Below are positions 1 through 8,398 of a stretch of DNA of 28,756 nt, one piece after another. The stretch comes from a virus (Duplodnaviria; Heunggongvirae; Uroviricota; Caudoviricetes). Under the pieces are notes generated by a model. The model did not search any database, had not been told where the DNA came from, and was given only the letters and a program-made list of their open reading frames with translations. The stretch spans positions 1 to 28,756 of IMG/VR virus record IMGVR_UViG_2537561604_000016; one strand, given 5' to 3'. Both the position numbers and the translations under genes were made by a program. Each line of letters begins with the position of its first letter. The stretch's first letter is position 1.

Positions 1-1158
1 ATGCTCACCGTTAAGCAGATTGAAGCAGCAAAGCCGAAAGAAAAACCATACCGCCTACTCGATGGTAATGGCCTGTACCTTTATGTCCCTGTGTCAGGGA
101 AAAAGGTATGGCAGCTTCGCTACAAGATTGACGGTAAGGAGAAAATCCTGACTGTCGGAAAATATCCGCTTATGACTTTGCAGGAGGCAAGGGATAAAGC
201 ATGGACTGCGAGGAAAGACATCTCGGTTGGCATCGATCCGGTAAAGGCGAAAAAGGCTTCGTCTAACAACAATTCCTTTAGTGCAATTTACAAGGAATGG
301 TACGAACACAAGAAGCAAGTCTGGTCAGTAGGGTATGCGACTGAACTTGCAAAAATGTTTGATGACGACATTTTACCCATCATCGGCGGCCTTGAAATTC
401 AGGATATTGAGCCGATGCAACTGCTGGAAGTAATCCGCAGATTTGAAGATCGCGGTGCAATGGAGCGAGCCAACAAAGCACGTAGAAGATGCGGCGAGGT
501 TTTCCGTTACGCTATTGTCACCGGAAGGGCTAAATATAACCCGGCACCTGACCTTGCAGACGCCATGAAAGGATACCGCAAGAAGAACTTCCCGTTTTTA
601 CCTGCCGACCAGATCCCGGCATTCAACAAAGCACTGGCAACATTTTCAGGAAGTATCGTATCGCTCATTGCGACCAAAGTTTTACGCTACACAGCCCTCA
701 GAACAAAAGAGCTTCGTTCCATGCTATGGAAGAACGTCGATTTTGAAAACAGGATTATCACCATCGACGCCAATGTGATGAAGGGACGCAAGATTCATGT
801 GGTTCCGATGTCGGACCAGGTGGTTGAACTTCTCACTACGCTAAGCTCCATCACTAAACCAGTATCAGAGTTTGTTTTTGCCGGACGCAACGATAAGAAG
901 AAGCCAATCTGCGAGAACGCGGTATTGCTTGTGATCAAACAAATCGGCTATGAAGGTCTGGAAAGCGGTCACGGATTCAGGCATGAATTCAGCACGATTA
1001 TGAACGAGCACGAATGGCCTGCTGACGCGATTGAGGTGCAACTAGCACATGCCAACGGCGGATCTGTGCGCGGGATTTACAACCATGCTCAGTATCTCGA
1101 TAAGCGCAGAGAAATGATGCAATGGTGGGCGGACTGGCTTGATGAGAAGGTAGAGTGA
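1..1158 (+). CDS. int: Tyrosine integrase, P4-like family; N-terminus may be cut by the window edge
   Basis: 385-aa ORF with the AKPKEKPYRL..DG.GLYL N-terminal signature of P4-type integrases and a C-terminal catalytic region (GHGFRHEF, LAHANG, RGIYNHAQY) carrying the R/H-x-x-R/H/Y residues of tyrosine recombinases. Stop is TGA at 1156-1158. Confidence 0.85.
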   Translation: MLTVKQIEAAKPKEKPYRLLDGNGLYLYVPVSGKKVWQLRYKIDGKEKILTVGKYPLMTLQEARDKAWTARKDISVGIDPVKAKKASSNNNSFSAIYKEWYEHKKQVWSVGYATELAKMFDDDILPIIGGLEIQDIEPMQLLEVIRRFEDRGAMERANKARRRCGEVFRYAIVTGRAKYNPAPDLADAMKGYRKKNFPFLPADQIPAFNKALATFSGSIVSLIATKVLRYTALRTKELRSMLWKNVDFENRIITIDANVMKGRKIHVVPMSDQVVELLTTLSSITKPVSEFVFAGRNDKKKPICENAVLLVIKQIGYEGLESGHGFRHEFSTIMNEHEWPADAIEVQLAHANGGSVRGIYNHAQYLDKRREMMQWWADWLDEKVE

Positions 1159-1390
1159 CCCACCTTAACTATCGAATGACATAAATCCTTGCAATCCAGT
1201 GCAAAGATTTGTGTGTCTCAGTTTTGTCTAATTGTTCTACTAAAAACATAGTAAAATCGGTAACGGCTGGAAATCGTTCAATACCCGTACTATTGAAGTT
1301 ATCTAAGACAGGAGGTTTATTTAATAAATCACTTTATATAAAGAAGCAATTAATTTAACAATTATAGCTATAAAAAATAAATCTTTCTAA

Positions 1391-1420
1391 AGCCGGAAAC
1401 ACCGGCTATTTTTTGTTAAA
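1391..1420. terminator. Candidate bidirectional intrinsic terminator hairpin at the 3' end of the membrane-protein gene
   Basis: Inverted repeat agccgg-aaac-accggct at 1391-1407 followed by a T-run (attttttgtt) on the plus strand. It overlaps the stop codon of the minus-strand gene ending at 1406. The minus-strand reading is less U-rich. Confidence 0.4.
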
Positions 1421-2440
1421 GAAATAAAACAAACCTGTGGTTGATATAAATATTAAAATAGCCGACATGCCTATTTTAATATAGGGCCAAACAATCATTG
1501 TATTTTTATCACTAACGAATACCATTGCCAAAAAAGCCATCAAACATAACAATCCAAACATAATAGCACTTTTTAAATTAAGTCTCAGACATAGTTCTTG
1601 TGCCACTGTATACATATCAAAGTCAACATTTTTACCCACCCCATTCCCTTTAATTTCACCATTAGAACTCCCACTAGTGCTGTCACTTTCTACATTAATT
1701 ACTTTATATGATAAAAAGTTTGAGTGTTTAAAAAAAGGCAACGTTTTGATATTAAGTGGAATATAAATATCATCATAATCAACAGATGATTCTATAGGAT
1801 TACAATGTGCAATCACAACATCATCAGGACTACAATTTATAAGTAATTTTTTAGAAGCTCCATCAAGATTCGCTACTTTTATATTTATAGTGTACCTATC
1901 ACCATGATATACTTCATAGAAACACCCTTTACTTTGAGGGTTGTATTTCGGAATAACCCTTCTTCCTAGAGAGTCAAGGATACCATCAATAGAAAAAAAC
2001 ATCATATCAGGAAATGCGCACCTAACTTCTTCCACCCTACTTTTCCAGTTGCTATAATAATCAGAATCATTACACTCTATATATTTTAAGAAAAGCCCAT
2101 CATCTCCCTGATTACAAATTTCAGCATTAATAAAATCCCCAAGAATCATCCGAACATGATAAAGTTCGGTCATATCACTCCAGTCAAACGAAATTATTTT
2201 CGCCTTCCTAATTGATTTATGGATCAATTTTTTATTTTCATTCATTGTATTTCCTTGCGAAAAATAAATGAATACATCACTACCAACTATCGCTTGCCGT
2301 TGTTGATAAATGCAAGCCTCAACATATTTCTTTTTGTATCTAAAATGAATGACATCACCTTTTGGCAAACTTAACACCTTGAATATATCAGCTTTATATT
2401 GTTCTCTGGAATCAGAGCTAAACGCTGCCATAACTCTCAT
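1406..2440 (-). CDS. Hypothetical membrane-anchored protein; about 290-aa soluble N-terminal domain plus two C-terminal transmembrane helices; AT-rich cargo gene
   Basis: Long minus-strand ORF. The likely true start is the ATG at 2440-2438, preceded by GGGGAGG at 8 nt, and it overlaps the upstream stop as ATGA (translational coupling). The C-terminus carries two hydrophobic stretches (AIMFGLLCLMAFLAMVFV and MIVWPYIKIGMSAILIFISTTGLFYFF). I recognise no catalytic motif. Visibly AT-rich compared with the tail genes. Confidence 0.6.
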   Translation of the reverse strand: MRVMAAFSSDSREQYKADIFKVLSLPKGDVIHFRYKKKYVEACIYQQRQAIVGSDVFIYFSQGNTMNENKKLIHKSIRKAKIISFDWSDMTELYHVRMILGDFINAEICNQGDDGLFLKYIECNDSDYYSNWKSRVEEVRCAFPDMMFFSIDGILDSLGRRVIPKYNPQSKGCFYEVYHGDRYTINIKVANLDGASKKLLINCSPDDVVIAHCNPIESSVDYDDIYIPLNIKTLPFFKHSNFLSYKVINVESDSTSGSSNGEIKGNGVGKNVDFDMYTVAQELCLRLNLKSAIMFGLLCLMAFLAMVFVSDKNTMIVWPYIKIGMSAILIFISTTGLFYFFNKK

Positions 2441-3141
2441 ATTAGAACCTCCCCGAGTAAACATTCCCAACGAAATTTCTTCAGTTTATATATTTCTAAA
2501 TTATCCCTAATTATTCCATCCTGCTTTGCTTTATCGGCCCAACGATTATGAGGATGTACAGTCCCAACTAACTGCCACCCAGCACCTTTTAAAGATGCGC
2601 CTGTTTCACTGCTTAGAGTATAGGTAATAATTTTTTCTCCTCCCATCATTTTCCAGATTGTGCTACATCTACTAATCAGAAAGGAGCAAGTTCCTTTTGG
2701 AGATTTGTCACTGACACATAATCGTGTAATCTCTGCCGTCACACCATCCATGTACGTTGCAGATACGGGATTTCCAACTATCGCTACACCAACCAATTCA
2801 TCAGAATCTATGTGGTAGGCAGCTATAGCCCATCTGCCCGAATTCCTTGACGTTGGTCGATGGTGTCGATGATAAATAGAAACAAATTCATTTGCTTTTT
2901 TTATCGTTATAGGTTTTACATATAGTAACTTCGCCAAAATCCACACCTTGTAACATGATGGTAATATCATCACAACAATACAAAACTTATTGATTTTTAA
3001 CAACCAATTATAATGCCTAACCCCCATAGCACTACTTATCTTGTCTTCAAAAATCAGCTCGCATCCTGCACAGTTCAGTGCATTACGTTGTAGATCTGTG
3101 TTCTGGTCATTTGTTGACACGCGTACATAGCCAATAAGCAT
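2437..3141 (-). CDS. Chimeric ORF: about 37 N-terminal codons of a Gin/Pin-type serine invertase fused in frame to a roughly 197-aa foreign domain, tentatively GNAT-fold / Mom-like (XF1762-family)
   Basis: ATG at 3141-3139 has a strong SD (AGGGGAG about 7 nt upstream). The first residues MLIGYVRVSTNDQNTDLQRNAL..CAGCE..IFEDK are near-identical to the N-termini of Gin/Hin/Pin as I recall them, after which the sequence is unrelated to invertases. The C-terminal part has the pattern ..HRHH..P....G...........LVGVA.VG.PVS........EI.RL............ITYT...E.G.SL..AGW that I associate with Mom-like acyltransferase-fold proteins; this is a recollection, not a search result. Confidence 0.5.
   Translation of the reverse strand: MLIGYVRVSTNDQNTDLQRNALNCAGCELIFEDKISSAMGVRHYNWLLKINKFCIVVMILPSCYKVWILAKLLYVKPITIKKANEFVSIYHRHHRPTSRNSGRWAIAAYHIDSDELVGVAIVGNPVSATYMDGVTAEITRLCVSDKSPKGTCSFLISRCSTIWKMMGGEKIITYTLSSETGASLKGAGWQLVGTVHPHNRWADKAKQDGIIRDNLEIYKLKKFRWECLLGEVLI
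3031..3141 (-). pseudogene. pin: 5' remnant of a DNA invertase gene (gin/pin/cin family), truncated after about codon 37
   Basis: Only the N-terminal approximately 37 codons, including the catalytic Ser of the YVRVST motif, are invertase-like. No continuation of an invertase reading frame of 60 aa or more exists in any frame downstream. It sits about 56 bp from the left crossover site, as gin does relative to the Mu G segment. Confidence 0.6.
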
Positions 3142-3196
3142 GATCACTCCCCTGAATAAAAACCTGGGATGATGCCAGTTAGCCATTATCTCTGCA

Positions 3197-3223
3197 TTTT
3201 CATAAACGTTGGTTTGGGAGAAG
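3197..3223. repeat. Left recombination site of the invertible tail-fibre segment (gix/pix-like), inverted-repeat partner of 5066-5092
   Basis: ttttcataaacgTTggtttgggagaa resembles the 26-bp gix/hix architecture (two 12-bp half sites around a 2-bp core). The 15-nt core ttggtttgggagaag is exactly repeated in inverse orientation at 5066-5080. Confidence 0.7.
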
Positions 3224-3582
3224 CGGCAAAACGGGATGTGGGAACAGGGGAAAATCAGATACCGGACATGGCCTCTTTTGCCAGTGGTGATGGATGGATG
3301 AAATTACCCAACGGGAAAATCCTGCAATATGGTCGTGGTGCGGTTACGCCGACATTATCGACGCAAACAATGAGAATTACATTCAGCATCCCTTTCCCCA
3401 AAAAAGCGGACTGCGCCATGCTTACTCATTCTGGTGATGGCGGTGCGCCTTTAGGCGCTGGGCGGGGATTCATGATGACCGCAGAAGGCCCAACGTTAAC
3501 CGGCTTTAATTCTGCTTACAGAACGTCATCAACCAGCGACACGGTATCGATGAATTACAGTTGGTGGGCTGTTGGTGAGTAA
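3209..3582 (+). CDS. Alternative tail-fibre C-terminal cassette (silent in this orientation); becomes fused to the constant N-terminal part on inversion
   Basis: The plus-strand reading frame runs through the left crossover site (..FINVGLGE..) without a credible own start and with the same GLGE junction as the expressed fibre. A different C-terminal domain follows, ending at the TAA at 3580-3582. Confidence 0.6.
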
Positions 3583-3602
3583 TTTTATTCAGGGTGATTT
3601 AT

Positions 3603-4046
3603 ATGAACGAATATGTTTATAGCGCAAGGCATAATGCTTTTTTCCCTGTGGATATGATTGATAAATATAAATCAGAGGGATGGGATTTATCAGACGCTAA
3701 GGAAGTAAATCAAAATATTATCAGTGAGTTTATGGCTGAACCGCCACAAGGAAAAATCCGTATTGCCGGAGATGATGGGCTGCCTGCGTGGGCAGATATT
3801 CCTCCACCCACGCATGAAGAACTTATTGAAATTACTGAATCAGAAAGACAGCTACTAATTAACCAGGCCAACGAATACATGAACAGTAAACAATGGCCTG
3901 GTAAAGCCGCTATTGGTCGTCTGAAAGGTGACGAACTGGCGCAATATAATTTGTGGCTGGATTATCTGGACGCACTGGAACTGGTTGATACCTCCAGTGC
4001 TCCAGATATTGAATGGCCTACGCATCCGGCAGTTCAGGCCAGATGA
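3603..4046 (+). CDS. Tail fibre assembly protein (alternative copy, Tfa')
   Basis: ATG at 3603 with GGTGA upstream. The C-terminal region (..LWLDYLDALELVDTSSAPDIEWP..) is homologous to the C-terminus of the convergent Tfa at 4018-4620, the conserved Tfa chaperone domain. It converges on and overlaps the other tfa by 29 bp. Confidence 0.75.
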   Translation: MNEYVYSARHNAFFPVDMIDKYKSEGWDLSDAKEVNQNIISEFMAEPPQGKIRIAGDDGLPAWADIPPPTHEELIEITESERQLLINQANEYMNSKQWPGKAAIGRLKGDELAQYNLWLDYLDALELVDTSSAPDIEWPTHPAVQAR

Positions 4047-4620
4047 CATCCGGCGCGGTGCTGGTATCTGTTGCCGTCACCGCGTCAATGTAATCCAGCA
4101 CGGCGTTAAGTCGGGTGGTTTCTGCCTGCGTCAACTTCCGCCCGGCCTGCAATTTCAGCTGAATCAGACTGATGGAAGCCATTGCAGCATCAATCAGTGA
4201 CTGGCGCTGTGCTTCTGCCGCGTCTACTGCGGCGCTATGCTGTGCCTCAGTATCGGTCACCCATTTCTCACCATCCCATTTATCGTATGGAGATAAAGGG
4301 GCGATAGTGGTTGTATTTTCAGGGTAATCACCCGGAGCTTTGATTTCTTTTGATTCTCCTGTTTCTGTGCTAAAGACGATTTCACCACGATGGTCTGGCA
4401 CATATTCCCATGAGTTAAAATCTGCAGAACGGCAGATTGCATAACCAGTTTTGTATGAGCCAGGAGCATCTAAACAGGAACATGCCGGAATGCCGACACC
4501 CACAGCAAGATATTCAGTTGATGTGAAAATATATTCTCGTGTTTCACCATCATAGTTATAAACCGTAATATTTCCTGCCTGGGTGGCGATAAATTCGTTA
4601 TTTAATACAGCGTAATCCAT
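4018..4620 (-). CDS. Tail fibre assembly protein (Tfa)
   Basis: 200-aa ORF whose ATG overlaps the tail-fibre stop (TAATG). The conserved C-terminus ..LDYIDAVTATDTSTAPDVIWP.. is typical of TfaE/U-type chaperones. Confidence 0.8.
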   Translation of the reverse strand: MDYAVLNNEFIATQAGNITVYNYDGETREYIFTSTEYLAVGVGIPACSCLDAPGSYKTGYAICRSADFNSWEYVPDHRGEIVFSTETGESKEIKAPGDYPENTTTIAPLSPYDKWDGEKWVTDTEAQHSAAVDAAEAQRQSLIDAAMASISLIQLKLQAGRKLTQAETTRLNAVLDYIDAVTATDTSTAPDVIWPELPDA

Positions 4621-5435
4621 TATGCAGCCCTCACGATATAATTAAAGGCAATGTTTCGAGGACGGTTTTCGTTTGCAGTTGGAACAACTCTGGAAGCATC
4701 AAATGTTACTCGCTTTGCATAACCACCTTTAATTGAATCAGATGAAGCATCTCCGATGACGCTGGTTGTAAAAACGCCAGAATCAGAAGGGTAGGTATTA
4801 AACCTGACATCCACTAATGCACCAATTATATTTCGAATGGCATCGCCCTGTGATGAAAGCAAGCTACGGTTAGTATCTATTCCTCTTCCGTCATCCCAGC
4901 CACGAATGAACTCACCACGTAAATCAGGCAATTTATTTGTCGGGTAAGCCTTTGCCAGTTCCGGGTATTCTTCAGCAGAAAAAGCCGCACCGTTGCATTT
5001 CAGCCAGCCTGTTGGCGGAGTGGCTGAAGGCCACGGAACAGGGACACCAACAGGTAATGCAGAGCCTTCTCCCAAACCAAGGTTTTCGAGAGCCGTTCGC
5101 ACAGTGCCATCCGATTTGATATCGCCAAACGGATTCTTGCGGCTCAGGTATTCAACAGCAAACCCCGATTCCAGCAATTCAACAAAACCGGGCAGATCAC
5201 CATTATCAAGCACATCCCGTTGCGTTTTATCACTTACAAACTGGGCCAGAGCTGCAGCAATAAAGCTGGCCTGCCGAATAACCTTATTGACTTGCGCACT
5301 GGATGCTTTCCCTGCTGTAAATCCGGATATAAGCGCAGGCAACGTTTCCCATTCCTCCTGCGACATAACATTGGCATTTCGATCAGTTGCAAACGCTTTA
5401 AAGTCATTTTTCGCCATCAGAGTAATACTCCCCAT
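4620..5435 (-). CDS. Tail fibre protein: constant N-terminal part (5093-5435) plus variable C-terminal part inside the invertible segment (4620-5065)
   Basis: The C-terminal region ..[22 protein letters not shown]...[19 protein letters not shown].. is the classic phage tail-fibre/tail-collar receptor-binding signature. The gene is crossed by the right recombination site. The start may instead be the ATG at 5417, which forms an ATGA overlap with the upstream gene. Confidence 0.8.
5066..5092. repeat. Right recombination site of the invertible tail-fibre segment, inside the tail-fibre gene
   Basis: The reverse complement of 5066-5092 is ctctcgaaaaccTTggtttgggagaag, matching the left site exactly in the core and partially in the flank. 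It encodes the shared ..LGLGE.. junction of the tail-fibre protein. Confidence 0.7.
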
Positions 5436-6097
5436 GCCCCTACATCAAAACCACTGATGAATTCGTTATCCATATCAAAACCAAAAAATTTAGAGCCTTC
5501 CGATGGAGTTTCCACCGAAGGTGTTTCAATGCCCCCCGCCCATACCCCGGCGGCTTTTACTGTTAGATACCCCTGTTTAATTGCCGCAATTAACTCACGC
5601 GATACATCTGAAATATCAGTATCAGGAAAGACCCAGACCGATATCGTCATGTCCTGGTTATCGACTATCTGCATTCGCAGCCCGGATCCTGCTGTTGCAG
5701 CGTCAAGAATTGCTGGAAGCGAATCATTCCGTCCGTCCCAGTTATTAATCGCAATCTTCGCTTTAAGGATGACACGATAAGTTTCATCGCTGAGGTACAT
5801 GTATCCGGAATCAGGATCGTATGGCCCCTGCCATACACCATGATCATATCCAAGCCCGTCGGTATCCCAGCTGAAATAGACACCTGAGATAGGCTGGCTG
5901 ACAACACGGCTACGTCCGATCCACAATCCCAGAATGTCAAGTTGCACACCAACCGCAGAGTCAATATCAAATGCAGTAATCAGCCCTCTGGTGGCCGCCG
6001 CAACATCAATAAGCGGCCGGGTCATCAGATCAACATGTGCAAGAAATTTAGGTTTGGTGGCGTGGTAGTTCGTGATTAGTTCGGTATATTTGCTCAT
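5417..6097 (-). CDS. Tail/baseplate protein, YmfQ-like (DUF2612-type), upstream partner of the tail fibre
   Basis: 226-aa ORF immediately upstream of the fibre gene in the late operon. Position and general sequence character recall e14 ymfQ / Mu gp48-type proteins. Assignment is by synteny and recollection. Confidence 0.5.
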
Positions 6098-7293
6098 GAC
6101 TCCACCGTTATAACGATATTTTCCGGTGTACAGGACGCAGATTCGTTGTATCTGATATCAATGTTTGATGACGACAAAGCCCCCGGGGATTTCCCAATCG
6201 TCAGTTCCTGAATATCGTAATAGCGTGCATTCCCGCCACTCACCACACCAAGATTCGCCGGTGAGTAAATGCGACTTAAAAGGACCGAATCACCAATCAT
6301 CAGACTATTGATATAGTCGGAAATAGCCTGCTGGATCTGCTGCCCTATCTGTGAGGTATAACCCGTAAAAACTTTTAATTTAATCCGGGCATAAACAGGC
6401 ACATCACTAGAGCGCGAGAATTTGATTACATGGGGATTGCCGTATTTATCCGGAACCGTAACGGATGTTGTACCGTGAGTGGATGTCCCCTGGCCTTTAT
6501 TCCCTCTGATAGCCTGAGCAATATCCGTCACATCACCGCCATCCACAATTACAGCAACAGAGTGTGGCGGTAACCCGTTACCGTCCTCCGAACCAGTATC
6601 GTTTTCATAGAGTTTGTGGCGGGTTACACCGGTAACATTAGAAACAGCACCATCCAGTGCTTCAAATGGGGTTATTGATGGCAACGCAACACTTTGCGAC
6701 TGGCGGATACGTAACTCAGCGTCAGTTTCTGCCGGAGTGCCCACAGTGGCTGCAGCAGGATTGGTTACCGAAACCCAGCCACGGGTTGGCGTATTAATTT
6801 CAGTGATAGTTCCAGCCAGCGCCGCCACTGCACCACTGACGGAACATGTTGCGGTCACCATCACTGTACCATCCACGCCTACCACCACTGAAGCAGGCAA
6901 ACGCCATATCACATTATTACTGTCTTTCACGCTGCCATTAATGATGGTTGTTCCGGCAGTTCCTGTAAGAAGCAAATCAACCGTAGAGTTCGTCGCGCCT
7001 TTACGTGAAATACCATTTATTTTCACGTTACTGGTCAGTGCAGCCCCATAGCCGGTTGCCGGTGAAAAACAGTTGTAGACAGTTATCGCCGTATTATTGG
7101 CATCATGAATCGCCAGCGCCATCAGAGCCACCATCTGGCCGTCTTTGCTGTCCGGTTCGAGGTAGGCATCACTACCATAAATCTGCTGAAAATAGCTAAT
7201 CAGGGTGCTGAGTATCGTCTGATAATCAGGCGCACTGATCCCCTCCGCGGTTACCTTTGCAGATAAACCGAGAGAATCAAGGTTCAGAGCCAT
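6094..7293 (-). CDS. Baseplate J-like protein (gpJ / Mu gp47 family)
   Basis: 399-aa ORF in the canonical position between the W-like and fibre-proximal genes. Start and stop overlap the neighbours (coupled operon). Confidence 0.65.
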   Translation of the reverse strand: MALNLDSLGLSAKVTAEGISAPDYQTILSTLISYFQQIYGSDAYLEPDSKDGQMVALMALAIHDANNTAITVYNCFSPATGYGAALTSNVKINGISRKGATNSTVDLLLTGTAGTTIINGSVKDSNNVIWRLPASVVVGVDGTVMVTATCSVSGAVAALAGTITEINTPTRGWVSVTNPAAATVGTPAETDAELRIRQSQSVALPSITPFEALDGAVSNVTGVTRHKLYENDTGSEDGNGLPPHSVAVIVDGGDVTDIAQAIRGNKGQGTSTHGTTSVTVPDKYGNPHVIKFSRSSDVPVYARIKLKVFTGYTSQIGQQIQQAISDYINSLMIGDSVLLSRIYSPANLGVVSGGNARYYDIQELTIGKSPGALSSSNIDIRYNESASCTPENIVITVES

Positions 7294-7646
7294 TACGCCT
7301 CCGATGTAACAGTCGTTATTCCATAAAGAGTGTCGATTTCAGCGGAAAACATGACACGTCGGGTCGTGGTATCCACCGTCGTATTGAAAGAGAGGATTGA
7401 TTTAACGCCCTGCGTTTCCAGAATGCGCTTACGGATCGCCAGGTTGTAGGTTTCCGGCTTCTGCCTGCCCAGCACGGACTGGATCCATGGAGTCCCTTCG
7501 GTGGTGTCGAGAAACCATTGCCCATACCACAATTCGAATCGCGTTTTTACCGCCTGCGCCACGGCCTCCGGTGAGTTAATCAGCCAGGTGTCATCACCGC
7601 TGCCAAAGGTGTAATCACCATCGGCGTCTTCACGTCTGTATCGCAT
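7293..7646 (-). CDS. Baseplate wedge protein (gpW / gp25-like)
   Basis: 117-aa ORF between the spike and the J-like gene, the usual size and position for W/gp25 lysozyme-like baseplate proteins. Confidence 0.5.
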   Translation of the reverse strand: MRYRREDADGDYTFGSGDDTWLINSPEAVAQAVKTRFELWYGQWFLDTTEGTPWIQSVLGRQKPETYNLAIRKRILETQGVKSILSFNTTVDTTTRRVMFSAEIDTLYGITTVTSEA

Positions 7647-8398
7647 CAGTTTACCCCATCGGTATTGCTTCCACCGCGCTGAACACCGCCATGAGTGTGC
7701 GTATCATCGATTGGCTTGCCGTTAGCCTTAACGCTCCCCAAGAACTCAACAGCACCAGTGATTTTTGAAGCCACACCAGAAACAACAGACCCCACCATGC
7801 CCCCCATCCAGGTTAACAGGCCATGAATGGTTACTTTCTCAGAAAAATCAGCCAGAGGGGCAACCACATCAAGGCCCCCCGGAGCGACAATTTTAATTTT
7901 CCTGGTATCAGGATTAAGCTCAAAATAGGTGCTGCCGTCATCACTACGCAACTGTGTGGCACTGGTATTAATACCGCTAATCTTCCTTGCCTGCGACTGG
8001 GGACCGACAATACAAAACGCATCCGATAAATCATGCATTCTGTCATCGACCGGCTCCTGTATCCCGCCACTCTGCCACCAGAAATCAATACAACGATCGG
8101 CAAAAATCACCAGGCATTCATCGCCGGCTTCCACCGGGAAAGTTAACGTGCAGCCGCCGCCGCGCGGGAATACCACTGGTACATCCACCAGCAATGGGTA
8201 ATTTTGGGTAATGCGGTTGCCGTCATTATCCTTTTCAACCGAACGGATCGCAGGCTGCACAACCGCTGTCACCGCATCAGGATCGAATGACTGGACGATG
8301 CCAGGCAAAGCAACACGTATCTGGTTCTTTGTTGTTTCCCGTTCAGATTTGAATGTTTCGGCAAGGTCGCCGCTGCGGGTCTGGTCAGATACTGCCAT
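7646..8398 (-). CDS. Baseplate central spike protein (gpV / Mu gp45-like)
   Basis: 250-aa ORF with a Gly-rich C-terminus, located upstream of the W and J homologues. Confidence 0.5.
   Translation of the reverse strand: MAVSDQTRSGDLAETFKSERETTKNQIRVALPGIVQSFDPDAVTAVVQPAIRSVEKDNDGNRITQNYPLLVDVPVVFPRGGGCTLTFPVEAGDECLVIFADRCIDFWWQSGGIQEPVDDRMHDLSDAFCIVGPQSQARKISGINTSATQLRSDDGSTYFELNPDTRKIKIVAPGGLDVVAPLADFSEKVTIHGLLTWMGGMVGSVVSGVASKITGAVEFLGSVKANGKPIDDTHTHGGVQRGGSNTDGVN

What the first reader, a model, noticed from the sequence alone, without database searches (positions are those of the whole stretch)
1159..3186. AT-rich two-gene cargo operon at the invertase-adjacent prophage hotspot
Two minus-strand ORFs (2437-3141 and 1406-2440) are translationally coupled through an ATGA stop/start overlap at 2437-2440, with a strong SD (GGGGAGG) before the second gene and a terminator hairpin at the end. 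The island is markedly AT-rich relative to the flanking tail genes (roughly 30-40% against more than 50% GC by eye), indicating recent horizontal acquisition. It sits exactly where e14 carries mcrA, directly downstream of the tail-fibre invertase, a known prophage cargo/defence hotspot. The first product looks like a GNAT-fold/Mom-like protein (DNA modification or acyl transfer); the second is a 344-aa protein with a large novel cytoplasmic domain and two C-terminal TM helices, an architecture shared by many abortive-infection and superinfection-exclusion effectors. I recognise no known defence system in this pair.
Basis: partly seen in the sequence, partly recalled or inferred. Interest (0 to 1): 0.8.

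Follow-up and report, generated by a model that had tools for sequence, protein, structure and literature searches.

The report
Mom-like enzyme with membrane reader
A rare AT-rich insert in an E. coli prophage, which destroyed the phage's own tail-fibre invertase gene, carries a gene pair that is conserved across bacterial phyla but unstudied: a Mom-like modifying enzyme and a membrane-anchored protein with a "modified-base reader" fold. The pair looks like a new candidate anti-phage system.

The parts
1298..3034 (.). AT-rich island (1,737 bp, GC 0.337). It replaces 497 bp of the sister prophage: pinE codons ~37-184 plus downstream DNA.
   Evidence: blastn of window against L003: window 1-1297 matches L003 4902-6199, and window 3035-4661 matches L003 6697-8322. 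GC values.
3035..3141 (-). Remnant of the Pin-type serine invertase gene. The ATG at 3141 and about 36-37 codons (MLIGYVRVSTNDQNTDLQRNALNCAGCELIFEDKISS) remain, fused in frame to island sequence.
   Evidence: Pfam Resolvase 2.2e-6 (residues 3-38); phrog_8275 DNA invertase 6e-26 (residues 1-37). Intact pinE in L003.
2437..3141 (-).
2437..2937 (-). Native Mom-like (XF1762-family GNAT) gene: TTG start at 2937-2935, 166 aa, TGA stop at 2439-2437.
   Evidence: NF045478 5.6e-50 over 143/143 model positions. Homologues of 164-166 aa start at the equivalent codon, which is GTG in K. oxytoca.
2944..2949 (-). AAGGTG Shine-Dalgarno, 6 nt before TTG 2937. It is conserved in the K. oxytoca copy.
2938..3004 (-). 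Module's own upstream region, which travels with it (a possible native promoter; not demonstrated).
   Evidence: The 74%-identical DNA match to K. oxytoca L004 runs over window 3004-1407.
2448..2454 (-). GGGGAGG Shine-Dalgarno for the second gene, inside the end of the first gene.
1406..2440 (-). Partner gene, 344 aa (WP_001265506.1, annotated 'hypothetical'). Its ATG at 2440 overlaps the upstream TGA.
   Evidence: phrog_30351 (unknown function) 6e-198. No Pfam or PADLOC match, and only two insignificant NCBIfam SecD hits (E 0.05-0.09, far below cut-off).
2057..2440 (-). Partner residues 1-128: PUA-like beta-barrel carrying the family's invariant residues (AFSSD 6-10, R12, Y15, D18, HFRY 32-35, R78, H95).
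1691..2008 (-). Partner residues ~145-250: Ig-like (MSP/PapD-like) beta-sandwich.
1418..1576 (-). Partner residues 289-341: two long hydrophobic helices (TM hairpin), followed by the conserved C-terminal FNKK.
   Evidence: Helices 289-310 and 318-341 in the model. Hydropathy above 1.6. Conservation.
1391..1407 (.). GC-rich hairpin AGCCGG-n5-CCGGCT overlapping the stop codon; terminator-like.
   Evidence: The scan called it on the + strand; the T-run on the coding strand is weak.
1..1158 (+). Context: prophage tyrosine integrase IntS. The attachment site is the tRNA-Arg gene just outside the window.
   Evidence: Pfam Phage_integrase 5e-39 and Arm-DNA-bind_3. L001 annotation.

Best explanation
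The island carries a self-contained, horizontally mobile two-gene conflict module. Gene 1 (166 aa, TTG 2937) is a Mom-family GNAT-fold transferase of the XF1762 subfamily. It most likely transfers an acyl or aminoacyl group onto a nucleobase, adenine N6 by analogy with Mu Mom, which uses Gly-tRNA(Gly) on dsDNA. Gene 2 (344 aa) is translationally coupled to gene 1. It is held in the inner membrane by a C-terminal helical hairpin and exposes to the cytoplasm a PUA-like barrel, the fold that reads modified bases in EVE, YTH, ASCH and McrB-N proteins and in the Metis sensor MisA, plus an Ig-like domain. I propose that the barrel binds the enzyme's product, either modified nucleic acid or the modified mononucleotide released when DNA is degraded. 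I further propose that ligand binding switches the membrane hairpin into a toxic, membrane-disrupting state, which aborts infection by an incoming phage or excludes it. Shown: gene structure, family membership, folds, strict synteny, mobility and defence-island context. Inferred: the substrate and chemistry of the enzyme, what the barrel binds, membrane toxicity and the anti-phage phenotype. In this E. coli prophage the module arrived by an event that deleted most of pin. It is now probably transcribed from the pin promoter as well as from its own upstream region.
For: Enzyme. NF045478 XF1762_fam scores 168.9 bits against a cut-off of 50, and phrog_1384 'Mom-like' gives 2.9e-38. Mom residues that are essential or important for activity (PMC13219725) align with invariant XF1762 residues: H58 with H23, R111 with R72, S124 with S85 and W181 with W133. 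The protein has pI 9.4.

Coupling. In about 25 distinct loci every partner gene has a Mom-family gene directly upstream on the same strand. In the genome scan, XF1762 relatives of >=58% identity had the partner in 12 of 12 loci, and those of <=56% identity had it in 0 of 67.

Context. The module sits in integrase-adjacent cargo slots of e14-like, P2-like, myovirus and corticovirus-like prophages and on an ICE. It lies directly upstream of Gabija in one locus (GajA 9e-274, GajB 3e-241), beside an HNH gene and a Dcm/Vsr cluster in another, and near E1/E2-like genes in a third.

Precedent. Metis and PUA-Cal-HAD show that PUA-like domains sense m6dAMP as a danger signal, and type II Metis uses a TM effector.
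Confidence: 0.4

Rival explanations
1. Counter-defence or self-protection. As with Mom in phage Mu, the enzyme hypermodifies the mobile element's own DNA so that it escapes restriction in new hosts. The membrane protein only regulates, sequesters or times the otherwise toxic enzyme, for example by tethering it at the membrane until induction.
For: The enzyme belongs to the Mom-like family. In Mu, mom also sits directly downstream of the tail-fibre invertase, in the order gin-com-mom. A partner-less XF1762 relative lies between the terminase and portal genes of a phage. The module is carried by several unrelated virus types and an ICE, all of which would benefit from anti-restriction. Mom needs tight control because it is toxic.
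Against: The module also sits in chromosomal islands next to defence genes, with no virion genes in the stretches examined. A dedicated 344-aa three-domain membrane protein with a reader-type fold is an elaborate regulator. In Shewanella L012 the enzyme gene survives intact while an IS splits the partner, so the partner is not needed to tolerate the enzyme. The HTH-like DNA-binding insertion is shortened.
Confidence: 0.25
2. RNA- or tRNA-directed module. The GNAT acts on aminoacyl-tRNA or another RNA, as the TacT, AtaT and ItaT toxins do or as the tRNA-binding half-reaction of Mom does. The PUA-like domain binds tRNA or RNA rather than DNA-derived ligands. The pair would then work as a translation-targeting toxin-type defence or an addiction module.
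Against: There is no small antitoxin-like gene, and no match to GNAT-toxin families in Pfam, NCBIfam or PADLOC. The best fold matches are EVE, YTH and Lon-N rather than classical PUA. The IS-disrupted partner in L012 argues against a toxin-antitoxin dependency.
Confidence: 0.15
3. In this particular E. coli prophage the pair is an inert insertion scar. An illegitimate recombination event destroyed pin and left a chimeric ORF, and the genes are no longer expressed or useful.
For: The ORF is a chimera and pin is truncated. The enzyme gene has a TTG start. The island is rare: 6 of 5,426 genomes.
Against: Both ORFs are intact in all six genomes, in two different chromosomal sites. The few substitutions between copies are mostly synonymous: the enzyme has 0 nonsynonymous and 1 synonymous change, and the partner has pN/pS about 0.19. 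The native Shine-Dalgarno and a non-ATG start are also found in K. oxytoca. The family is conserved at full length across phyla.
Confidence: 0.05

Closest known systems
Phage Mu Mom (N6-carbamoylmethyl-adenine DNA modification; GNAT fold, Gly-tRNA(Gly) donor; PMC13219725)
   Same: Both fall in the same broad family (phrog_1384, and a Pfam Mom hit over profile positions 2-131). Mom H58, E108, R111, S124 and W181 align with invariant XF1762 residues. In both, the gene sits in the slot just beyond the tail-fibre invertase.
   Different: The window protein is 166 aa against 241. It lacks Mom's first ~36 residues and its basic C-terminal tail, and the HTH-like insertion is about 14 residues shorter. 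D149 and R151 are not securely matched. There is no com-like regulator. It is always paired with a membrane protein that Mu lacks. Its Pfam score is below the gathering threshold.
NCBIfam NF045478 'XF1762 family protein' (a name only; no paper found)
   Same: Full-length match far above the cut-off; the window protein is a member.
   Different: The family has no assigned function. Only the subclade with >=58% identity to the window protein is linked to the 344-aa partner. More distant members sit in other contexts, for example between terminase and portal genes.
Metis / PUA-Cal-HAD defence (bioRxiv 10.1101/2025.11.05.686725; PMC12871103), especially type II Metis (TM effector MisC + MisB)
   Same: Both are two-gene operons that combine a modified-adenine theme with either a PUA-like sensor domain (type I) or a membrane-spanning effector (type II). 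Metis works by abortive infection.
   Different: The window pair has no calcineurin-like domain and no HAD phosphatase. The second gene here is a Mom-like transferase, a potential writer, rather than a ligand-degrading phosphatase. There are 2 TM helices against 3. No sequence relationship was detected. Metis relies on the host Dam, whereas this module brings its own enzyme.
(PIN)-GNAT-EVE proteins of prophages and defence islands (Bell, Wolf & Koonin 2020, PMC7641849)
   Same: Both associate a GNAT-fold enzyme with a PUA-like reader domain in virus-host conflict contexts. Both are uncharacterised.
   Different: There the two domains are fused in one soluble protein, usually with an ASCH partner.
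Signal-generating enzyme plus membrane effector systems such as CBASS Cap15 and Pycsar PycTM (from my own knowledge; not tested here)
   Same: The operon logic is the same: a small enzyme followed by a protein that combines a cytoplasmic ligand-binding beta-domain with two TM helices.
   Different: The families are unrelated. The domain order is reversed (the barrel is N-terminal here), and there is no cyclase.
Cargo slot next to the tail-fibre invertase (Mu gin-com-mom; e14 pin-mcrA, the latter from established knowledge)
   Same: The position at the end of the tail-fibre module is the same, and its content varies among related prophages.
   Different: Here the cargo did not insert beside the invertase gene but replaced most of it.

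Membership tests
NCBIfam NF045478 XF1762 family | Whole-protein score above the curated cut-off (50 bits) with full model coverage | tested here: met
   168.9 bits, E 5.6e-50, model positions 2-143 of 143.
Mom family (Pfam PF25680 / Mu Mom) | Score at or above the Pfam gathering threshold (27.1 bits) | tested here: not met
   23.5 bits, covering profile positions 2-131 of 202. Many close homologues do carry precomputed PF25680 hits, and phrog_1384 'Mom-like' gives 2.9e-38.
Mom family (Pfam PF25680 / Mu Mom) | Residues essential or important for activity: H58, R111, S124, D149, R151, W181 (PMC13219725) | tested here: inconclusive
   H58, R111, S124 and W181 align with invariant H23, R72, S85 and W133. 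D149 and R151 fall in an ambiguous or gapped part of a weak alignment.
Mom family (Pfam PF25680 / Mu Mom) | HTH-like insertion (~residues 175-209) required for momylation of dsDNA | tested here: inconclusive
   The MAFFT alignment shows a counterpart about 14 residues shorter, and Mom's basic C-terminal tail is absent. No structure of the XF1762 protein was predicted.
Mom family (Pfam PF25680 / Mu Mom) | Gly-tRNA-dependent modification of adenine in DNA | not testable with these tools
   Needs LC-MS/MS of nucleosides or an in vitro assay.
Pin/Hin/Gin serine DNA invertase | Complete resolvase catalytic domain plus C-terminal HTH (about 184-190 aa) | tested here: not met
   Only residues 1-37 match (Pfam Resolvase positions 2-45 of 145). 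The sister prophage has the full 184-aa pinE.
PUA-like superfamily (EVE/YTH/ASCH/Lon-N) | PUA-like pseudo-barrel fold | tested here: met
PUA-like superfamily (EVE/YTH/ASCH/Lon-N) | Sequence-level membership of a named family (Pfam EVE, YTH, ASCH, LON_substr_bdg) | tested here: not met
   No Pfam hit at E <= 1 and no PDB sequence hit at E <= 10.
PUA-like superfamily (EVE/YTH/ASCH/Lon-N) | Binding of a modified base in an aromatic pocket | not testable with these tools
   Invariant F7, Y15, F33, Y35, Y39 and H95, with R12, R34, K36 and R78, are suggestive only.
Metis (types I and II) | MisB HAD-family phosphatase partnered with MisA (PUA-calcineurin) or MisC (3-TM protein) | tested here: not met
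   Neither protein has a HAD or calcineurin domain. System composition taken.
Any system in PADLOC-DB v2.0.0 | Significant match to a defence-protein HMM | tested here: not met
   The partner has 0 hits. The enzyme has only a weak SduA hit, E 0.0089.
Abortive-infection membrane effector | Ligand- or infection-triggered membrane disruption and a population-level protection phenotype | not testable with these tools
   Only the architecture is shown: a cytoplasmic domain plus a 2-TM hairpin.

The most novel reading that the evidence does not exclude
A 'write-and-sense' immune module. The Mom-like enzyme places a private hypermodification (an N6-acyl or aminoacyl adenine) on the host's own DNA. 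When a lytic phage degrades the chromosome, the modified mononucleotide is released and bound by the PUA-like barrel of the membrane protein, which then permeabilises the membrane and aborts infection. This would be a Metis-like danger-signal system that brings its own writer instead of depending on Dam. It would also give bacteria a defensive use for Mom-type DNA chemistry, which is so far known only as a phage counter-defence.
Probability: 0.15. Interest if true: 0.85.

Novelty: new variant of a known kind. Interest (0 to 1): 0.66.

Why it matters
Mom-type adenine hypermodification was only recently explained biochemically (tRNA-dependent, 2026) and is known as a phage anti-restriction device. 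PUA-like domains were only recently shown to sense modified mononucleotides as danger signals (Metis and PUA-Cal-HAD, 2025-26). This locus joins the two themes in one compact, strictly conserved, cross-phylum operon for which I found no database function or paper. If it defends, it adds a new system and possibly a new logic, in which the cell marks its own DNA and senses the mark. If it protects the element's own DNA, it reveals a membrane-linked control of Mom-like enzymes. Either way it gives a function to the NCBIfam 'XF1762 family' and to phrog_30351. The pair is only 1.7 kb and comes from E. coli, so it is easy to test.

Tried and rejected
(1) Known defence system: neither protein gave a significant PADLOC match.

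(2) Sequence relatives with solved structures: none for either protein, as single sequence or as profile. The aspartate decarboxylase hits at E about 0.1 are noise.

(3) Literature: no paper holds 'XF1762' or either WP accession. Keyword searches found no described system of this composition. The DefensePredictor paper and its 12 held supplements mention none of the search terms (GNAT, acetyltransferase, acyltransferase, Mom, PUA, XF1762, the two WP accessions).

(4) Fusions of the N-domain to other effectors: the profile search returned only 8 short fragments, so it was uninformative. The 868-aa relative P0237 has no Pfam domain in its extension.

(5) Plasmids: no homologue of the partner among 72,556 plasmids.

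(6) Structured RNA in the island: no Rfam match at E <= 0.1.

(7) Promoter scan: 10 hits against 11 expected by chance, so uninformative.

(8) Neighbourhoods of partner-less XF1762 relatives in high-GC genomes (Streptomyces, Burkholderia): raw ORF lists were too noisy to interpret, and only a few neighbours were identified.

(9) dN/dS between E. coli copies: too few substitutions for more than a weak statement.

(10) Toxin-antitoxin reading, in which the partner neutralises the enzyme: disfavoured because Shewanella L012 keeps the enzyme gene intact while an IS splits the partner.

(11) Envelope or O-antigen modification, as with gtr genes next to int in SfV-like phages: considered from general knowledge and rejected. 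The partner has only a hairpin with a loop of about 8 residues outside the cell, and it has a nucleic-acid-reader fold.
Full report
1. What is in the sequence.

The window starts with a tyrosine integrase gene (1-1158, +; Pfam Phage_integrase 5e-39). It continues with minus-strand tail-fibre, baseplate and other myovirus genes. The first 3,223 bases are 100% identical to E. coli strain MEI1A-0323, where the prophage sits at the tRNA-Arg/intS site.

GC is 0.337 for 1298-3034, against 0.478 for the integrase gene and 0.480 for 3035-8000. The following features are all present:
- the two minus-strand ORFs;
- the ATGA stop/start overlap at 2440-2437;
- the GGGGAGG at 2454-2448;
- a GC-rich hairpin at 1391-1407.

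2. The first ORF is a chimera.

Residues 1-37 of ORF 2437-3141 are the N-terminus of a Pin/Hin-type serine invertase (Pfam Resolvase 2.2e-6; phrog_8275 6e-26). Only residues ~75-226 match the Mom-like family.

A sister prophage at the same chromosomal site (L003) has an intact 184-aa pinE. blastn shows that window 1-1297 and 3035-4661 are collinear with it. Window 1298-3034 (1,737 bp) stands in place of 497 bp that hold pinE codons ~37-184. The island therefore replaced most of the invertase gene rather than landing beside it.

Homologues of the Mom-like gene elsewhere are 164-166 aa and start MAKL(I/V)YVKP. In the window this corresponds to TTG 2937 (GTG in Klebsiella oxytoca), preceded by a conserved AAGGTG. 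DNA homology to the K. oxytoca copy runs from 3004 to 1407, so the module brings about 70-100 bp of its own upstream sequence. PGAP nevertheless annotates the 234-aa fusion.

3. The enzyme.

The 166-aa product is a full-length member of NCBIfam NF045478 'XF1762 family' (168.9 bits against a cut-off of 50). It also belongs to PHROG 1384 'Mom-like DNA modification protein' (2.9e-38). Pfam Mom is hit below threshold (23.5 against 27.1 bits).

The recent Mom paper (PMC13219725) shows that Mu Mom is a GNAT-fold enzyme. It transfers glycine from Gly-tRNA(Gly) to adenine N6 in dsDNA. S124, R111, D149 and R151 are essential, H58, Y59 and W181 are important, and an HTH-like insertion at 175-209 is required.

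In profile and MAFFT alignments, which are weak (E about 3e-3), H58, E108, R111, S124 and W181 fall on invariant XF1762 residues: H23, E69, R72, S85 and W133. D149 and R151 are not securely placed. The insertion is about 14 residues shorter, and Mom's N-terminal 36 residues and basic tail are missing.

The family is unusually conserved, at 55-82% identity from Enterobacterales to Bacteroidota and Desulfobacterota. The window protein is basic (pI 9.4).

4. The partner.

The 344-aa protein has no Pfam or PADLOC match and only insignificant NCBIfam hits, and it matches only phrog_30351, of unknown function. An exhaustive profile search of 1.84 billion representatives finds 567 clusters (141 at E <= 1e-30). 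Nearly all are 320-360 aa and matched end to end.

AlphaFold2 with 27 homologues gives pLDDT 86 and pTM 0.83. The model has these parts:
- a beta/alpha N-domain (residues 1-~128);
- a beta-sandwich (~145-250);
- a disordered linker (253-271);
- two long helices (289-310 and 318-341), which are the only strongly hydrophobic segments.

- ASCH;
- McrB N-domains;
- the EVE-HNH enzyme VcaM4I.

Foldseek agrees (Lon-N E 2.4e-4) and assigns the middle domain to MSP/PapD-like Ig folds.

The family's invariant residues are concentrated in the barrel and are aromatic or basic: AFSSD 6-10, R12, Y15, D18, HFRY 32-35, Y39, R78 and H95. There is no signal peptide, there are basic residues before TM1, and the conserved C-terminus is FNKK. 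Together these place the N-terminal 290 residues in the cytoplasm. This topology is an inference.

5. The pair is a conserved mobile module.

Every locus I could examine that encodes the partner has a Mom-family gene immediately upstream on the same strand. The two genes usually overlap or lie fewer than 25 bp apart. The hosts are:
- E. coli, K. oxytoca, Serratia, Morganella and Enterobacter;
- Shewanella, Pseudomonas, Stutzerimonas, Luteimonas and Teredinibacter;
- Hyphococcus;
- Polaribacter, Myroides, Arenibacter and Pedobacter;
- Desulfoluna and a Desulfobacteraceae MAG;
- six IMG/VR contigs;
- a corticovirus-like Vibrio prophage;
- an ICE, where the enzyme is a divergent 472-aa Mom-family protein.

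This makes about 25 distinct loci.

In the species-representative genome scan, XF1762 relatives of >=58% identity had the partner in 12 of 12 cases, and those of <=56% identity had it in 0 of 67. One partner-less relative lies between terminase and portal genes. The enzyme is far more conserved (58-82% identity) than the partner (about 30-70%).

6. Context.

The module occupies accessory slots in several kinds of element:
- between icd and int in e14-like prophages of Klebsiella and Serratia;
- at the end of a P2/HP1-like prophage in Morganella;
- next to int in the Vibrio element;
- in chromosomal islands next to bona fide defence genes. These are a complete Gabija system directly downstream (GajA 9e-274, GajB 3e-241), an HNH gene with a Dcm/Vsr/HATPase cluster, and E1/E2-like genes with ImmA-type genes.

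In E. coli it is rare, in 6 of 5,426 complete genomes, always with the same pin' junction but at two chromosomal sites.

The slot itself is variable. It holds pinE alone in L003 and pin plus a DUF4145 gene in L106. In Mu the same position holds com-mom.

7. Mechanism.

Shown: a Mom-family transferase and a membrane-anchored protein with a reader-type barrel are co-inherited as a translationally coupled, horizontally mobile unit. This unit travels with defence genes and prophage cargo.

Inferred, confidence about 0.4: the enzyme makes a modified base. The barrel binds that product, and the hairpin executes a membrane-level response that blocks phage. Precedents are Metis and PUA-Cal-HAD, in which a PUA-like domain senses m6dAMP released from degraded Dam-methylated DNA, and type II Metis, which uses a TM effector.

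The window pair is not Metis. It has no HAD and no calcineurin domain, and no sequence relationship was detected. Its second component is a candidate writer rather than a ligand-degrading phosphatase.

The main rival (0.25) is a Mom-like anti-restriction function for the element itself, with the membrane protein as regulator. An RNA- or tRNA-directed toxin-like role (0.15) and an inert scar (0.05) are less likely. In Shewanella L012 an IS disrupts the partner while the enzyme gene stays intact, which argues against a simple toxin-antitoxin pair.

8. Novelty and verdict.

No paper in the library mentions XF1762 or either protein accession, and keyword searches found no system of this composition. 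The closest described things are Mom, the uncharacterised (PIN)-GNAT-EVE fusions and Metis.

I rate it a new variant of a known kind: a conflict system built from a modifying enzyme, a PUA-like reader and a membrane effector. Interest is 0.66. The anatomy is solid and the pair is directly testable. The phenotype and the chemistry are unproven.

Noticed in passing
window 3204-5085 (crossover sites 3204-3223 and 5066-5085): The tail-fibre segment is inverted relative to strains MEI1A-0323 and MEI2O1-23 (99.8% identical, with 20-bp overlaps at both ends). It has the same orientation as strain WAT and an IMG/VR contig. The arms AAACGTTGGTTTGGGAGAAG / CTTCTCCCAAACCAAGGTTT form a 95% inverted repeat. 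All carriers share the same truncated pin, so the segment must have flipped after the invertase was destroyed, presumably through a Pin-type invertase supplied in trans by another prophage.
   Followed up: partly
window 3035-3141: The prophage's own invertase is reduced to 37 codons, so this phage can no longer switch its tail-fibre (host-range) variants by itself. Acquiring the cargo cost the phage a function.
   Followed up: partly
L015 (phage Mu NC_000929, 35092-36602): In Mu the order is G segment - gin - com - mom. The classical Mom gene therefore occupies the same slot, just past the tail-fibre invertase, as the Mom-like module in the window.
   Followed up: yes
L012 5495-7631 (Shewanella algae) against L013: A DDE transposase (IS) splits the partner gene into two pieces while the XF1762 gene stays intact. 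The sister strain L013 has the intact pair.
   Followed up: partly
L099 1485-3005 (Vibrio phage 10N.286.55.F1_PE001, PQ189382): A 15-kb corticovirus-like (Vinavirales) temperate element carries the same pair next to its integrase. The XF1762 gene there is split into two CDSs, by a frameshift or a sequencing error.
   Followed up: no
L106 3494-4189 (E. coli QA-1986 630): A related prophage end at the bioA-ybhB site carries a DUF4145-domain gene just beyond an intact invertase gene. This is a different cargo at the same slot.
   Followed up: no
L095 10001-16890 (Teredinibacter/Thalassocella): The pair lies directly upstream of a complete Gabija system (GajA, GajB), followed by a 531-aa protein with no Pfam or PADLOC match.
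   Followed up: partly
L010 4557-7391 (metagenome contig with TrwC relaxase and integrase): On an ICE-like element the partner follows a 472-aa Mom-family protein that has long N- and C-terminal extensions (weak YunG match). A 110-aa ORF follows the pair. This may be a variant architecture of the module.
   Followed up: no
P0237 (868 aa): One family member carries a C-terminal extension of about 530 aa beyond the TM hairpin, with no Pfam domain. It could be a different output domain or a gene-calling fusion.
   Followed up: partly
L011 6669-7352 and L013 6974-7546: In Polaribacter and Shewanella a serine recombinase (Resolvase-family) gene lies just downstream of the pair. In E. coli the pair is fused to the stump of a serine invertase. 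It is unclear whether this reflects a shared mobilisation route or coincidence.
   Followed up: no
window 1159-1297: This integrase-proximal spacer is shared with the sister prophage, where PGAP annotates a 37-aa 'capsid protein' ORF (frameshifted in L106). It is probably a gene remnant or a misannotation.
   Followed up: no
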